A stretch of 64,000 nt of DNA, taken from contig OX597823.1 in the NCBI GenBank assembly GCA_951406725.2, positions 108,376,001-108,440,000 on the forward strand. The letters run 5' to 3'. Made by a program: the position numbers and the translations under genes. This DNA is from Octopus vulgaris. Its lineage: Eukaryota. Shown here one piece after another: positions 21,748 to 61,750 of the stretch. How positions within the stretch are numbered: position 1 is the stretch's first letter; the number at the start of each line of letters is the position of its first letter. The notes under the pieces are model-generated. The model ran no database searches. It was given only the letters and a program-made list of their open reading frames with translations, and was not told where the DNA came from.

Positions 21748-21953
21748 CCAAAAATCAAGGAATGGAGCAGATAAAACCTGGGCTACATATGTTTCATAGT
21801 GGGTGGAACCCTAGAAGTAATATACTGCTGGCTACTTTTCAGACCTGAAGAGTAGCCTGCAGTATACACCTCACTAGGATAAGTACTACTTCCAAGGCTC
21901 CATTATGAAACATATGTAGGCCAGGTTTTACCTACTCTATTCCTTAATTTTGG
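21748..21953. mobile_element. Palindromic short element with two head-to-head hammerhead-like motifs
   Basis: Imperfect inverted arms; + strand CTGAAGA(21845)...GAAAC ATAT GTA(21918); - strand CTGAAAA...GAAAC ATAT GTA. Confidence 0.65.
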
Positions 21954-21980
21954 GGTTTATACACACACACACACACATAT

Positions 21981-22660
21981 ACGAGAAGTCAAAAATTATC
22001 CATGCTTTCACCTTAACATATTTTAATTATTGTCACACTGCCTTATAGTGTGCTTATAGATGGTACTATTGTGCTCATGTGATCGAAGTTTAAGCCTGAT
22101 CACACCATTTTTATCTTTGGCTCTAAAGTGTAAGCATAGCCACTCCACTAGCAATGTGCACCAAAGAAGAACAAAGAGTAGTGATCCAAGGTATGTGAGG
22201 TGCCGAAATTCATTGGAGGCTTTTAGCACAATATGGGGACTGCACTACAGCATAGAAGTGTATATGAGTGGATCGGAAAGTTTAAAAGTAGCCAGACAAG
22301 TGTGACACACAAAGAGGGAGAAGGACGCCTGTCAACCTCCACAACTGATGAGAAGATTCAGCAAGCTTGAGAGATGGTAACGGTAAAGCAGTTCCCCATT
22401 ACCATCTCTCAAATCCCTTCTCTTTGTTCTTCTTTGGTGCACATTGCTAGTGGAGTGGCCATGCTTACACTGTAAAGCCAGAAAGAAAAATGGTGAGATC
22501 AGGCTCAAACTTCGATCATGTGAACACAATAGTACCAACTATAAGCATGTATGGCAGATCTGAAGAGTTTGTGAGACATGGCAAGATGAAAACATCTCAA
22601 CCAGTGGCAAAGTGGAGAGTGGTGGCTTCATCACGACAGTGCACCTTCGAATGCATGACA
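21981..22660 (+). mobile_element. Decayed mariner with internal inversion
   Basis: HTH remnant EIHWRLLAQYG...EWIGKFK...STTDEKIQQ and catalytic remnant WWLHHDSAP; 22061-22185 is inverted at 22413-22538. Confidence 0.75.
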
Positions 22661-23410
22661 ATGCACCTCCATCCTGCCTCATATTGCCTCCAATCTCATT
22701 GTTTGGATCCACTATACCTAAACATTTACTTCCTTCCCAACATCCAAAAACACAGCAACCCTGGCTAATCCATTGCTTCTGCCTGTAATCCCCCTTTGGA
22801 ATTAATCTCCTAATACCTCAACCTTGTCCATGCAACACTAATGGCTTCCATCCTCTCACACATTCATGACACCAGCCACACTTTCCACCTCTTTAATTCC
22901 TTCTCATTCTCTCCTGGATCTTCCCAACTCTCCCTCTTGACATCAAAGTCTCTTTACACCGTTATCCCTTATAACGAAAGCCTCGTTGGACTCAAACATT
23001 TCCTTAACTTATGTTTCCATCCATAACCTTGCACTTCTATCATCATCAGGGTGGTGAATTGGTTCTCTCTTTGAAATGCTTTTTGTTCACTGGAGAGTTT
23101 TACCAACAAGTCTTTGGGGCAGCTTCAACTACATGAATCTATTTGTCAGCTGTGTTGAGGTGCATGTATTTTCACAGTTCACAAGTTCTAGTCCTGAGCT
23201 ATGCAGCTGGTACACCAATGACTGTATCACAGCAACCTCCATCTCCTACAAACCACTCCACGTCTCTTTCATTCAGTCCTTCCATCCCATCCTTGAATTC
23301 TTCTATTCCATCTCCAACACCTCTGCCCACTTCCTCAATGCTTTTATTGTCATCAACCACTCCTCTTTTACCATTTCCATCTACTACAATCTTACAAATT
23401 CTCACTCTTA
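22660..23410 (+). mobile_element. Penelope-like RT remnant (5' part)
   Basis: Decayed DIKSLYTVIP and YMNLFVSCVE...WYTNDCI motifs; collinear with the 538..1245 remnant. Confidence 0.75.
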
Positions 23411-24060
23411 AAATCTTTATTATAGGCATATAGCCTGAACAAAGAGTGGACATAACAAGGACAGACACAACACCACAGTGGGGACAATAAACATAAAACG
23501 AATGAGGATGAATATTATATAAAAATGGAAAATGAAATGGCTTCATGGGCCCCACTCCTCATGCAGTATCATTTCAACTTTTGTACACACTATAATACAA
23601 TCGTGCTATTATTGTCTGTTGTTTTTTCTTAATTATCGCTTGTTTTCTTTTTTTTCCCCATTCGAAGCACTTTTCCTTTCTTTTTCTTTTTTCTTTTATC
23701 AAAGTAATTTTACTTACTCTCCATTAAGGCTCCAGGTCTCTGAGTTCAATTACTAGTGGCAGTTCATCGAACTCCCCCAACACTCCGGGCAGGTTAATCT
23801 TGTTTCCACACATGTCCACTAGTCTCTTATATGTTTCTTTATCGACCTCAATGGCCTTTTCATTTTCTGAGTATACATCCCTGGGCAATGGCCTTTTCAT
23901 TTTCTGAGTATACATCCCTGGGCAACTTCACTCTTATGATGTGTTTAAATTTTACAATTCTTCTTTCCACCTCCTTGTTTTTGACATAAGTTACAAAGTT
24001 CCACTTGTTCCTTCCTCCTCTAAGTTTTCTCCTTCCTGCTGCTATTCTTCTCACTCTTAC
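23410..24060 (-). mobile_element. 3' end of a LINE inserted into the Penelope remnant
   Basis: Minus-strand ORF ends (23724..24054), then a T-rich UTR ending tgtccttgttatgtcc...aataaag; tandem duplication of about 37 bp at 23850-23924. Confidence 0.55.
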
Positions 24061-24084
24061 CTCTTCTCACCTCCTCCCAAACTC

Positions 24085-24870
24085 CCACCAAAATGTCCAT
24101 CTCCTACTCTCAGCTCTTCCATCTCCATCAGCTCTACAGTGATGATCAAGACTTTAAGATGCAGACCCAACTCATGGCTCACCCTTTCACCAAAATCGGA
24201 CACTATGCACTGTTATCTAAGTTGCTCACTCTCTGTCTCTTTATCATACCTGCCCTTACTTGCTTTCCTTTTCCCCTTGCTTGCCATCCCTTCACCCTGC
24301 CCTCCAATACACTATATTACATGCTTTCCCACCTACTCCTATCCAAACCCTCAACCTCCTACAGCTTCCCTAAACTATCCCTTCCTTCCTTCATATGTGC
24401 ACGCAATCAACTGTGGCTTACTGGGCAGTAGCTCTTTTCCTACACCCACCACCCAACCTGATTCCTTCTCTTGCTCTTGCCCATGCTACCACACCTTTCT
24501 CACTTACACTACCTTCTTCACCCCTAGCCACAGCCACTCCTTCCATGTCATCAGCTCCTGCACTTGTACCTCTAGTAACCTGATTAACTTCATCCTCTAC
24601 TCACTTTGCCACTTCCCATACATTGAACACACTGGTCGGATCCTGGCTGACAAGTTTGCCAAACACCTCCATGACATCAGGCTCAGTAATGACACTTCAG
24701 TCTCATGCCATTTTATGTCAACTAGTCCTTCACTGTAGCATCTGTCTGTATTTGGACAGGGCCTTGCACAGAGACCACCCAGACTCTTGTCTCTGCATGG
24801 AGCAGGAATTAATTTTCTTTCTCCTTACTTTATCTCTCACGGTCTAAATTCTCCACCACTTTTCATTTAA
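24085..24870 (+). mobile_element. Penelope-like remnant (3' part, GIY-YIG)
   Basis: ORF 23941..24738 ends CSCPCYHT...CTCTSSNLINFILYSLCHFPYIEHTGRILADKFAKHLHDIR...VSCHF. Confidence 0.85.
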
Positions 24871-59350: not shown

Positions 59351-60994
59351 ATGGCAATCCTTCTTATCTATATAATATTGAATCATTTTTCTTCTTCCTG
59401 AATTATTCTCTTTCTTCCTGTTGTTTTTATTATTATAAGAAATCCTTATTAAGTAAAAAACAATAAATCATCATTATTATTATTATTATTATTATTGTTA
59501 TTTTTATTATATTGCTATTATTAGTAATATAATTCATATTATTGTTATAATTTTTATCATTATCCTAATTCTTCTTATACTTATTGTCTTTGCTATTAAT
59601 TTTTCCCCTTTTTCTTCCATATATAAATGTGTGTGTGTGTGCGTGTGTATGTGTGTGTGAGTGTGTGTGTGTGCATGTGTGTGTGTGTGTATGTGTGTAT
59701 ACATCTATTTCTCTTTCAAGTGACCAGCTTTCATGATAGGTGGCAAGTGTCCTACTAAAGTACATGCTAAGGCATTGAGGTCAGTGGGTCAGCAAATTAG
59801 CGCAAATCTATGATAGGTGGTGCAGTGTGCACTGGAGTAGAAACTACGACTGTGGCTGGCCGATCATCAATGAAGTGTGTCAGTGCAAGTCACTGGACAG
59901 AGAAAACAGTGATGTTTAATCAATGCTTATATCCCTCGTGTATTGAAGGACACGTCGATTGATTGCAACACACCCACACACACGCACACACACACACACA
60001 CACATATACACACTCATATATACACGCATATACATATTTGCTCTCAATGACACAGCCGTATACTTACATACACTAACGTACACATACTAATATTGTTACA
60101 CACATGTATGTATGTAGGCAAAAATTAACCCTCAAACTCAAGTACACACAGACACACAAGCACACACACACACACACACAAGCACACACACACACACACA
60201 CACAAGCACACACACACATACACACACATTTATATATTTGTGTACGTTCACATATTGATAAATACACTAGAATACTCAGGTTTATACATAATGAATATAT
60301 ATATATATATATATAAGTATATATATATTTATATGGATATCTATCTATCTACTTACCTATCTATCTATCTATCTATCTATCTATCTATATATACATACAT
60401 ACATATATATATGCACATTATATATATATATATATATATATGTTATGCTCATTAGCACACCTGCACACATATAACACACACTCACTCACACACATCCATT
60501 AATTCATTCATAAATACATATACAAGAACATGCACACATACAATTGTTATACAAATTACATGTGTTTTAATACATGTATTCACAGACTTATACACGCTAT
60601 TTTTCTCCCACGTATACATCCATATTCATTAAATATACATATACACACACACACAATGACACACACACACATACACATACACAAACATGCACACAAACAC
60701 TCATAGATACTCTCGTGTGTGTATGTGTGTGTGTGTGTTTGTGTGATGGTATACTGAAAGAGTGAGAGAGAAGAGAGAAAGAGAAAAGAGTGGGAGACAG
60801 AGAGAGAGTGAGAGAGAGAGAGAGAGAGAAATCTCTGCATATAGTTATGTGAGATAGTGTAATTAATTCAACCCAAACATGTTACTGGTACCTAACGTAG
60901 TGATGACATGGGGTGGGCAAAAAAAGAAGATTCTGAAACCTACAATGGCATCAATTGCAAGATAATTTCGTTAATAATTAATATTTCATATCTT

Positions 60995-61260
60995 AACTTG
61001 GTATTGAATAAAGAGTATCTGGACAGGCTGGAAACAAACGAGATATGCTTGCTCTACTGGATATGTAATGCTTAAGTGCAACAATGATTAAAAAAAATCT
61101 AGGTATGGGCAATATCAGATGTAATGAGCAAGACATGTAATTGAGCTGGTATGGGCTTGTGTTTGGAGGACGATGTGGTTTGAGTGCAAACAGATAGAAC
61201 TTGAGGAATAATATGCTGAAGAAAGACATGAGAAGAAGGAAGAAGGGTAAACCTTTCCAA
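60995..61260 (+). mobile_element. RTE-clade LINE remnant
   Basis: Decayed EYLDRLETNEICLLYWICN...LGMGNIRCN...LSWYGLV, matching the RTE RLERNE..MLRW.C...LRWYGHV pattern. Confidence 0.7.
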
Positions 61261-61283
61261 AAGGTGCCACGATATATATATAT

Positions 61284-61588
61284 ATCACGTGATCACGTGA
61301 CCGACCAGACCATCAGATGTTGTTACACATCGCTGGTCACAATGCGTTCGCATTGTTTTAGCCTTCGAATGACGCCACCCCGCTGGCTAAGTGAGCAGGC
61401 CAACAGAAGAAAGAGTGGAAGAAAGAGTGGTGAAAGAGTACAGCAGGGATCACCACCCCCTGCCAGAGCTTCGTGGAGCTTTTAGGTGTTTTCGCTCAAT
61501 AAACACACACAACGCCCGGTCTGGGAATCGAAACCGCGATCCTGCGACCGCGAGTCCGCTGCCCTAACCACTAGGCCATTGCGCCTCC
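61284..61588 (-). mobile_element. Young tRNA-derived SINE in (TA)n
   Basis: Minus strand ggaggcgcaatggcctagtggttagggcagcggactcgcggtcgcaggatcgcggtttcgattccc (A and B boxes), CpG-rich. Confidence 0.88.
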
Positions 61589-61606
61589 ATATATATATAT
61601 ATATAT

Positions 61607-61750
61607 CTGGAAAATTAAAATGACAAACAAATAAGGAATAATATCATGAACTTCATTAGCTTACTGCTGTTTCTTCTATAGGATGCAATGCACCCTATGG
61701 CTTCATCAGAGCATCAAACATGAAGCTCACTATAATATTCATTTGTAAGT
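61607..61750 (-). mobile_element. Short (TA)n-inserted element with hammerhead motif
   Basis: Minus strand gct-CTGATGA-agcc ATAGGGTGC att GCATCCTAT agaa-GAAAC AGCA GTA^agc at 61659-61712. Confidence 0.7.

What the first reader, a model, noticed from the sequence alone, without database searches (positions are those of the whole stretch)
21748..61750. Short hammerhead-ribozyme mini-retroelements from at least six families targeting (TA)n microsatellites
Seen: non-coding inserts of about 100-400 bp at 21748, 30372, 30566, 35533, 35975, 52294, 54057, 55826 and 61607. Most are bounded by (TA)n and they are unrelated outside the motif, yet each has NUGANNN core / stem II / GAAA / short, mostly palindromic helix III (ACATATGT, AAATATTT, AGCGCT, ACAATTGT, ACGT) / NUH. 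Established: Penelope-like element pLTRs and retrozymes carry minimal type I hammerheads that lack a stable helix III and are thought to cleave as dimers; PLE insertions often have an inverted pLTR. Inference: these are non-autonomous, ribozyme-processed RNAs mobilised by PLE RT/GIY-YIG proteins (remnants at 95-1280 and 22660-24870). At roughly one motif per 7 kb this would be a very large ribozyme repertoire that standard annotation hides as simple repeat. I cannot tell whether these particular families are already catalogued.
Basis: partly seen in the sequence, partly recalled or inferred. Interest (0 to 1): 0.85.

Follow-up and report, generated by a model that had tools for sequence, protein, structure and literature searches.

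The report
Spliced Penelope leaders copied into DNA
The hammerhead-type RNA motifs are real, but in five of eight families they are end pieces of protein-coding Penelope-like jumping genes rather than separate mini-elements; one insert has that gene's intron cut out exactly, which likely means the element copies the capped front end of its own messenger RNA and may explain how these elements normally keep their intron.

Summary
Nine inserts, eight families: hammerhead layouts confirmed, although only 52294 is intact in the window. Genome-wide the motif is far above chance (26 hits in 800 kb against 0-2 shuffled). Five families (52294, 30372, 30566/35533, 35975, 55826) run upstream into RT + GIY-YIG reading frames: they are termini of autonomous Penelope-like elements (PLEs), not non-autonomous families, and their ends are not ribozyme cut sites. 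Three old families have no parent shown. That much is known biology, and this scan noted it on other DNA of this genome.

Beyond it: insert 52294 carries a precisely spliced junction of a Hydra-clade PLE's GT-AG intron. There are 339 spliced and 297 intron-keeping arms. Spliced arms stop 9-23 nt past the junction (28 of 30), often with an extra G. None leads into the ORF (0, against 12 intron-keeping). Paired arms never mix (19 spliced, 27 unspliced, 0 mixed). Family 30372 shows the same short class (204 copies with the extra G). Likely mechanism: twin internal priming on one capped sense RNA. This bears on the open question of PLE intron retention. Spliced Hydra copies were also noted by this scan in another genome; my searches found no paper.

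The parts
52294..52450 (+). Spliced leader copy of a Hydra-clade PLE: 11 nt of exon 1 (52294-52304) joined to exon 2 (52305-52450), in (TA)n on both sides, single arm, no tail
   Evidence: Long copies have a 1.3-1.8 kb GT...AG intron at this junction; 339 exact spliced junctions in the genome
52314..52356 (+). Intact minimal type I hammerhead: stem I CCAC/GTGG, core CTGAAGA, stem II TTGTC/GACAA, helix III ACAATTGT, A17
   Evidence: Only window hit of the strict descriptor; cofold gives the double hammerhead with an intermolecular helix III, -24.0 against -17.4 kcal/mol for two monomers
30368..30392 (-). Inverted short arm of the 30372 insert, made only of the family's 3' tail
   Evidence: BLAST of natural copy L164
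30393..30518 (+). Main arm of the 30372 insert; hammerhead 30394-30436 with a natural G3-C8 core (GTGAACA), extra G, stem II GTCGC/GCGAC, helix III AATATT; 5' strand of stem I is missing in this copy
   Evidence: 100% to many copies; G3-C8 in 16 of 17 distinct copies; parent RT-EN frame L295
30568..30970 (.). Two-armed insert of the 30566/35533 family: minus arm 30568-30812 with tail, plus arm 30811-30970; motifs at 30747-30786 (-) and 30807-30846 (+)
   Evidence: parent RT-EN in L243, L244, L249, L250
35533..35934 (.). Second two-armed insert of the same family: minus arm 35533-35722, plus arm 35721-35934 with tail; motifs at 35657-35696 (-) and 35717-35756 (+); position 9 is C in most copies
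35969..36264 (.). Two-armed insert: minus arm 35969-36167 with tail and motif 36115-36153 (U3 with G8 or A8, C-C at the base of stem II, 2-bp stem I), plus arm 36167-36264
   Evidence: decayed RT-EN parent with 1.3-kb 3' region in L251
55826..56076 (-). 3' end of a very large Neptune/Nematis-type PLE family; motif 55916-55951, family core CTGTNGA (U at position 6), here C6 and G12 to A
   Evidence: 28 of 30 young endonuclease-bearing copies carry the motif 630-890 nt downstream and end in (TA)n; position 6 is T in 19 of 23 copies
54054..54212 (-). Insert of the 54057 family; motif 54159-54191, canonical core, G12 to A; no parent shown
   Evidence: 5' ends of 11 of 12 copies at -54 to -76 from the core
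21725..21947 (.). Old two-armed insert, not in (TA)n; plus-arm motif about 21842-21922 (core CTGAAGA at 21845, stem II with a 57-nt loop, helix III ACATATGT), decayed in this copy; no parent shown
61607..61725 (-). Old insert; motif 61659-61712 with part of stem II deleted, family helix III ACAGCTGT; no parent shown
95..1305 (-). Decayed PLE RT-GIY-YIG remnant of the same clade as the 55826 parent; its own 3' end is missing
22660..24870 (+). Second decayed PLE RT-GIY-YIG remnant of that clade

Best explanation
The inserts are short copies of the hammerhead-bearing terminal repeat (pLTR) of several protein-coding Penelope-like retrotransposons, and in the two youngest families they are likely copies of the capped 5' leader of the element's own messenger RNA. 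Shown: parents with RT + GIY-YIG frames (five families), TA targets, two head-to-head arms of which one carries a tail that leads to the start codon, an exactly spliced junction at 52294, a sharp 5' limit, an extra G, and no mixing of spliced and unspliced arms. Inferred: (1) transcription starts in the upstream pLTR about 23 nt before the splice donor and the cap-proximal intron is spliced; (2) the PLE protein binds the leader/ORF junction, nicks both strands of a (TA)n target and primes reverse transcription at two internal sites, the arm end and the tail end, on one RNA; (3) both cDNAs run to the cap, may add a C opposite it, and join through short homologies; (4) long, intron-keeping copies come from a different RNA in which the pLTR is internal and unspliced (tandem read-through, or a circle closed at the hammerhead cut sites). 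Hammerhead cleavage does not define these inserts; most genomic motifs are passengers that decay after insertion. For the older families the same route is suggested by clustered 5' ends but plain 5' truncation is not excluded.
For: Parents: 838- and 841-aa open frames behind the tail in L208 and L209; 524-aa RT-EN frame L295; L243/244/249/250; L251; 28 of 30. Splicing: donor GTAAGT directly after the exon-1 letters and AG directly before exon 2 in long copies; 339 spliced and 297 intron-keeping junctions, reversed-pattern controls 0. 5' limit: 28 of 30 spliced arms stop 9-23 nt upstream of the junction; spliced pairs lie 24-332 nt apart, unspliced pairs 534-9423 nt. Extra G: in family 30372, 15 of 18 short contexts have G where long copies have T, 204 such copies against 264 long-type; in family 52294, G in 12 of 24 non-extended contexts where 28 of 28 long copies have C. 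One RNA: 19 spliced/spliced, 27 unspliced/unspliced, 0 mixed of 46 pairs, 22 expected if independent; internal variants agree between arms in 32 of 32. Not fold-back: the tail-less arm reaches further 5' in 13 of 46 inserts, the tail arm in 20. Repeated origin: three exon-2 haplotypes occur in both spliced and intron-keeping copies. ORF link: 0 spliced leaders run into the ORF, 12 intron-keeping pLTRs do (L206 and L209). Literature: two internal RT start sites make the tail, both strands are extended, the first 172 nt of the ORF are needed, and hammerhead cleavage is dispensable in vitro (PMC11167929); promoter and intron lie in the pLTR (PMC2377424).
Against: No transcript evidence: the start site, the cap and the spliced mRNA were not observed. 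Many extra-G cases in family 52294 can also be read as a short homology with the other arm. For 30372 no splice donor was found and a very short first exon or a join to another exon ending in GAG would give the same letters. Two of 30 spliced arms (33, 48 nt) and L049 (about 110 nt) reach past the proposed start. Three spliced arms carry a haplotype whose nearest donor in my long copies is GA, explained only if an upstream GT copy of exon 1 was used. Two arm differences at a homopolymer and at the terminus (L010, L012) were not scored. Pair counts cover only contigs 1 to 4:140 Mb (174 of 636 arms). Parents were not found for 21748, 54057 and 61607. Pfam gave no RT or GIY-YIG hit for the parent; clade calls rest on motifs and relatives.
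Confidence: 0.75

Rival explanations
1. One reading: independent non-autonomous mini-retroelements whose RNA is cut to unit length by the hammerhead and mobilised in trans by PLE proteins.
For: Short copies far outnumber long ones; motifs and TA targeting are real; no parent found for 21748, 54057, 61607; 54057 copies share a 5' limit; true tandem retrozyme arrays exist in this genome (L298, L330).
Against: Five families run into RT-EN frames; ends do not match the cut site; none of the nine inserts is a head-to-tail array; spliced copies share haplotypes with coding copies.
Confidence: 0.1
2. All short copies are ordinary 5'-truncated insertions primed in the downstream (3') pLTR; that pLTR copy is sometimes spliced, and the RT simply falls off near the structured ribozyme region.
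For: 5' truncation is the rule for PLEs (PMC8557442); a few spliced arms pass the proposed start; 35975 and 55826 arms end at varied places.
Against: Intron-keeping arms pass the same ribozyme and run for kilobases, while spliced arms stop within 23 nt of the junction; the extra G is unexplained; no spliced pLTR is linked to the ORF. It may still hold for the older families.
Confidence: 0.12
3. One spliced leader inserted once, kept the internal promoter and amplified as a SINE-like non-autonomous family.
For: Penelope's promoter is internal (PMC2377424); one haplotype makes up about half of the spliced arms sampled.
Against: At least three haplotypes are shared with intron-keeping copies; inserted leaders end before the ORF start that the protein needs in the anole element (PMC11167929).
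Confidence: 0.06
4. The inverted arm arises by self-priming (fold-back) on an antisense template or on the first cDNA, as proposed for Adineta Penelope elements.
For: Junctions often lie at short palindromes (AATT); fold-back also predicts concordant arms; proposal in PMC3846280.
Against: GT-AG splicing in the sense orientation shows a sense template for the spliced class; neither arm is always contained in the other (the tail-less arm is longer at the 5' end in 13 of 46, by more than 10 nt in at least 7), which a copy of one arm cannot give.
Confidence: 0.05

Closest known systems
[quoted passage not shown]
   Same: Short palindromic helix III, extra nucleotide between 9 and 10.1, U3-A8 core variant, many families per genome, mostly single motifs from truncated PLEs, pairs on opposite strands; intron end beside helix I in Drosophila virilis Penelope; circular RNA proposed as template.
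   Different: That text reports no spliced genomic copies, and no families with G3-C8, U6 or C9; counts there are thousands, here an estimated 60,000-90,000 intact-looking motifs.
Hydra clade of PLEs, including Hydra-1_Obim (Craig et al. 2021, PMC8557442; section 11, passages, supplement hits)
   Same: Parent of 52294 has KWK in the RWK position, DKT, CxCx5C linker, CxxC and CxH, C-terminal endonuclease, canonical hammerhead and (TA)n targets.
   Different: Different protein and hammerhead from Hydra-1_Obim (compared by eye); about 840 aa with an asparagine-rich insert; 1.1-1.8 kb pLTR intron and hundreds of spliced leader copies.
Poseidon PAc of the green anole in vitro (Frangieh et al. 2024, PMC11167929; read parts 1-2 of 4)
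   Same: Two internal RT start sites that make the tail, both target strands extended, AT-rich cleavage, unprocessed RNA as substrate.
   Different: No splicing, cap or arm-pairing evidence there; here genomic copies mark which RNA isoform each arm came from.
Drosophila virilis Penelope (PMC2377424, PMC3681739; passages) and Adineta Penelope (PMC3846280; passages)
   Same: Start site, internal promoter and intron within the pLTR; introns kept in transposed copies; head-to-head inverted copies.
   Different: Those texts describe intron retention and leave sense versus antisense template open; here about half the arms of one family have the intron removed exactly.
Animal non-LTR retrozymes (PMC7229834, passages; bioRxiv 10.64898/2026.07.22.740005, parts 1-3 of 5)
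   Same: Type I hammerhead, non-coding, PLE-related, dispersed monomers occur.
   Different: Defined as head-to-tail arrays with a ribozyme per unit and circular RNAs; the nine inserts are single or inverted and five are ends of coding elements.

Membership tests
Minimal type I hammerhead of PLEs | Core N3UGANN8A...GAAA...UH with a 3-8 pair, flanked by stems I and II | tested here: met
   Family level: C-G (52294, 54057, 55826, 35533, 21748, 61607), G-C (30372), U-A/U-G (35975); stems II pair with unrelated sequences. Departures: U6 (55826), C9 (35533), C-C at the stem II base and 2-bp stem I (35975). Only 1 of 9 window copies is intact.
Minimal type I hammerhead of PLEs | Short palindromic helix III able to pair between two copies | tested here: met
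   Palindromes in seven families, imperfect in 35533; cofold builds the double hammerhead for 52294 but not for three other motifs tried
Minimal type I hammerhead of PLEs | Self-cleavage | not testable with these tools
   Needs transcription assays
Endonuclease-bearing PLE | RT and GIY-YIG in one frame upstream of the pLTR | tested here: met
   Five of eight families; not found for 21748, 54057, 61607
Endonuclease-bearing PLE | Inverted 5' arm, tail on one end, target duplication, TA preference | tested here: met
   duplications of about 9-13 nt read by eye in L096, L103, L110, L264
Hydra clade (parent of 52294) | RWK, DKT, CxCx5C, CxxC and CxH motifs, C-terminal endonuclease without CCHH | tested here: met
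   838-aa frame of L208 read against PMC8557442 section 11; KWK stands for RWK; 18 full-family relatives at 30-42% identity
Hydra clade (parent of 52294) | Placement in an RT tree with reference PLEs | not tested
   No reference set in the script machine
Neptune or Nematis clade (parents of 55826, 35975, 30372, 35533) | CX2-5CxxC linker before a C-terminal GIY-YIG | tested here: inconclusive
   Linker present in L292, L251, L295; it does not separate the two clades and no tree was built
Non-LTR retrozyme | Head-to-tail array with a hammerhead in each unit | tested here: not met
   None of the nine inserts; arrays do occur elsewhere (L298, L330)
Non-LTR retrozyme | Non-coding along the whole element | tested here: not met
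   Five families are ends of coding elements; open for three
Non-LTR retrozyme | Unit-length circular RNA | not testable with these tools
   Only assembled contigs were available

The most novel reading that the evidence does not exclude
PLEs keep their intron because only the cap-proximal copy is spliced and the hammerhead cuts that leader away: cleavage at both pLTR copies and ligation give a circle that holds the downstream, unspliced intron copy and restores the leader/ORF junction, so rolling reverse transcription yields full-length intron-keeping tandems, while uncleaved mRNA can only yield short spliced leader copies. A PLE protein dimer writes both arms from one RNA molecule. If so, a large share of the roughly 150,000 short hammerhead inserts of these families are fossil 5' ends of PLE mRNAs that record start sites, caps and splicing.
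Probability: 0.3. Interest if true: 0.82.

Novelty: new variant of a known kind. Interest (0 to 1): 0.6.

Why it matters
How PLEs retrotranspose without losing their intron, which strand serves as template, and how the inverted arm forms are stated as open in PMC3846280 and PMC8557442. One family here carries a built-in label (spliced or not) on several hundred young insertions. It shows directly that sense, spliced RNA is reverse transcribed, that the two arms come from the same RNA isoform, and that ORF-linked pLTRs come from another RNA. This makes the circular or read-through template model testable with an apparently active element. It also warns that tens of thousands of short 'SINE-like' or 'retrozyme-like' repeats in such genomes are PLE ends, and it supplies natural core variants (G3-C8, U6, C9) for ribozyme assays. 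The abundance of PLE hammerheads itself is known biology.

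Tried and rejected
Rfam scan at E up to 10: no hammerhead family among the 150 rows shown of 473; the rows shown were microRNA-type matches to TA repeats. 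First strict descriptor without the extra nucleotide found 1 of 9. Pfam: no RT or GIY-YIG hit for five window PLE frames or the 838-aa parent. RNA: no run on record as RNA was listed; contigs of four runs laid on exon 2 and the ORF start could not show splicing, starts or ends, so expression and the spliced mRNA remain untested. Parent of 21748: L082's RT fragments are not an endonuclease end; the 2.9-kb tandem on contig 2 is a segmental repeat without an ORF; 69 exact upstream matches were listed but not read. Parent of 54057: no endonuclease hit upstream of any held copy. Parent of 61607: none in 19 relatives. Donor-dead subfamily as a control for splicing: not clean, because that subfamily has tandem exon-1 copies. 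A spliced class in 30566/35533, 35975, 55826: none seen; 5' ends only suggestively clustered. Inverted repeat 22051-22547 considered and set aside as a mariner-like DNA transposon remnant (recognised from recall, not tested). Lunse, Weinberg and Breaker (RNA Biol 14:1499) is not held and Arkhipova et al. 2003 was seen only as a citation: either may already report some core variants or spliced copies. Supplements of the bioRxiv preprint were not seen. Literature searches that found no report of spliced PLE leader insertions.

Full report
Setting. The window is G000:C10:108376001-108440000 of a 2.8-Gb assembly, 36% GC and dense in microsatellites. It is inferred to be an octopus from the repeat landscape and a partial protein match named Octopus bimaculoides.

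Observation. They fall into eight families, since 30566 and 35533 are 93-95% alike. Only 52318 passes a strict descriptor; the others have decayed or truncated parts. The motif class is not chance: 26 hits in 800 kb of evenly spaced genome stretches against 0-2 in five dinucleotide shuffles, and 0 in 30 window shuffles. Seven of the 26 are one tandem array and one is probably chance, so the estimate is 60,000-90,000 intact-looking motifs per genome. The eight families give 45 insertions in the 800 kb, about 150,000 per genome with decayed relatives; 31 of 48 arms have (TA)5 within 100 nt of the 3' end against 10% background. Across families the stems differ in sequence yet pair, the 3-8 pair covaries (C-G, G-C, U-A or U-G) and helix III stays palindromic. 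Family-wide core departures: G3-C8 in 16 of 17 distinct 30372 copies, T at position 6 in 19 of 23 of 55826, C at position 9 in 23 of 33 of 35533.

What the inserts are. Walking upstream gave coding parents for five families. 52294: open frames of 838 and 841 aa begin just after the 3' tail in L208 and L209, with the Hydra-clade motifs listed in PMC8557442 section 11; the protein and hammerhead differ from Hydra-1_Obim in that paper's supplement (by eye). 30372: 524-aa RT-endonuclease frame, about 1.2 kb upstream of the motif. 30566/35533: a relative of that protein 250-550 nt upstream in four of eight single-arm copies fetched. 35975: a decayed RT-endonuclease and a 1.3-kb 3' region in L251. 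55826: 28 of 30 young endonuclease copies carry the motif 630-890 nt downstream and end in (TA)n; the two window remnants belong to this clade but are decayed. No parent was found for 21748, 54057 or 61607. Copies show the PLE footprint described in PMC8557442 (passages): head-to-head arms, a tail on one arm, short target duplications. Ends are not cut sites: 98 of 108 arms of the 52294 family read through the cut site and 1 starts there (the sample favours long arms). This part matches PMC4209133 (parts 1-2), which found minimal hammerheads mostly as single motifs of truncated PLEs.

The unexpected part. In long copies of the 52294 family the letters GAAACTGACTT are followed by GTAAGT and a 1.3-1.8 kb stretch ending in AG before ATTGGAAGTCC; a subfamily has a GA donor and 1.1 kb. 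The window insert reads GAAACTGACTT-ATTGGAAGTCC, the exact splice product. The genome holds 339 spliced and 297 intron-keeping junctions, controls 0. In the first 30 spliced arms by position, 28 stop 9-23 nt upstream of the junction, two at 33 and 48; one other (L049) reaches about 110. Among the 174 arms listed for contigs 1 to 4:140 Mb there are 46 head-to-head pairs: 19 spliced/spliced (24-332 nt apart), 27 unspliced/unspliced (534-9423 nt), none mixed, where 22 mixed are expected if arms drew RNAs independently. Internal variants agree between arms in 32 of 32 two-armed spliced inserts, and three haplotypes are shared between spliced and intron-keeping copies. The tail arm reaches further 5' in 20 inserts, the tail-less arm in 13, 10 are equal and 3 unscored, so neither arm is a fold-back copy of the other. 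No spliced leader continues into the ORF, whereas 12 intron-keeping pLTRs do. At -24 a G stands in 12 of 24 non-extended contexts where all 28 long copies have C, though many can be read as microhomology. Family 30372 gives the cleaner case: short copies begin G-AGATGC where long ones have T-AGATGC (15 of 18 contexts; 204 against 264 copies; 751 in all); no GAG-GT donor was found upstream.

How it likely works. Shown: sense, spliced RNA was reverse transcribed; both arms come from one isoform; short copies have a fixed 5' limit; ORF-linked pLTRs keep the intron. Established: the promoter, start site and intron lie in the pLTR (PMC2377424, passages); the anole PLE protein cuts AT-rich DNA on both strands, starts reverse transcription at two internal sites that define the tail, needs the ORF start, and does not need hammerhead cleavage (PMC11167929); an untemplated G marks reverse transcription up to a cap (own knowledge). 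Inferred: on a single-unit mRNA the only leader/ORF junction is at the 5' end, so priming there copies the spliced leader back to the cap and gives 150-260 nt inserts; long copies need an RNA with an internal, unspliced pLTR followed by the ORF start, which is a tandem read-through or a hammerhead-closed circle as proposed in PMC4209133. PMC3846280 (passages) favoured self-priming on an antisense template to explain intron retention and left the unspliced sense template open; PMC8557442 calls the meaning of intron retention unknown. The spliced class argues for a sense template. For 54057, 11 of 12 copies end at -54 to -76, and four of eight single-arm 35533 copies end about 55-75 nt upstream while four reach the ORF: suggestive of the same short class, not proof.

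Limits. No RNA evidence, no cleavage assay, no tree. A very short first exon could mimic the cap G in 30372. A 2026 repeat annotation of Octopus vulgaris lists 30 recently active Penelope families and has no mention of ribozymes in its main text (PMC13282606, passages); whether these families are in its library was not checked. Nine literature searches gave no report of spliced PLE leader insertions; two key papers could not be read. Earlier notes of this scan reached the general PLE-end reading on other pieces of this genome and noted spliced Hydra copies in another genome; I found the spliced junction before seeing the latter, and these notes are leads, not support.

Verdict. The motifs are real; the 'non-autonomous, ribozyme-processed mini-element' reading mostly fails; the finding as framed is known PLE biology at large scale. 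The spliced, G-tipped, arm-concordant leader copies are a new variant that makes an old mechanistic question testable. Interest 0.6.

Noticed in passing
   Followed up: partly
window 31180-31273 (minus): Further 3' fragment of the 55826 family without the ribozyme core, in (TA)n.
   Followed up: partly
window 22051-22547: 135-nt inverted repeat inside what looks like a mariner-type DNA transposon remnant (recalled resemblance).
   Followed up: no
window 53156-53572 (minus): 138-aa frame with a weak match to the Mos1 transposase HTH (E 0.028, below cutoff).
   Followed up: no
L298:2307-4513; L330:8667-9029; L332: Tandem arrays of canonical hammerheads (about 355-360 nt units, two-armed in L298), i.e. 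true non-LTR retrozymes; L330/L332 use U3-A8 cores.
   Followed up: no
L208:3206-5719: The Hydra-type ORF has a long asparagine-rich insert between RT and endonuclease, recalling the N-rich segments of Adineta Penelope (PMC3846280 abstract).
   Followed up: no
L117, L120, L123-L125, L203, L209, L210: The pLTR of the 52294 parent has a tandem duplication of the promoter/exon-1 region about 1.2 kb apart; one copy has a GT donor, the other GA.
   Followed up: partly
L264:1559-2104 (minus): A 30372-family insert with an 8-nt target duplication lies just upstream of an intron-free frame resembling dCMP deaminase (name recalled from the sequence).
   Followed up: no
   Followed up: partly
window 27571-27943: Two tandem copies of a 184-nt dispersed repeat that recurs in many fetched flanks.
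   Followed up: no
L337:7470, L367:6377: Another hammerhead family with U3-A8 core and AATT helix III, not present in the window.
   Followed up: no
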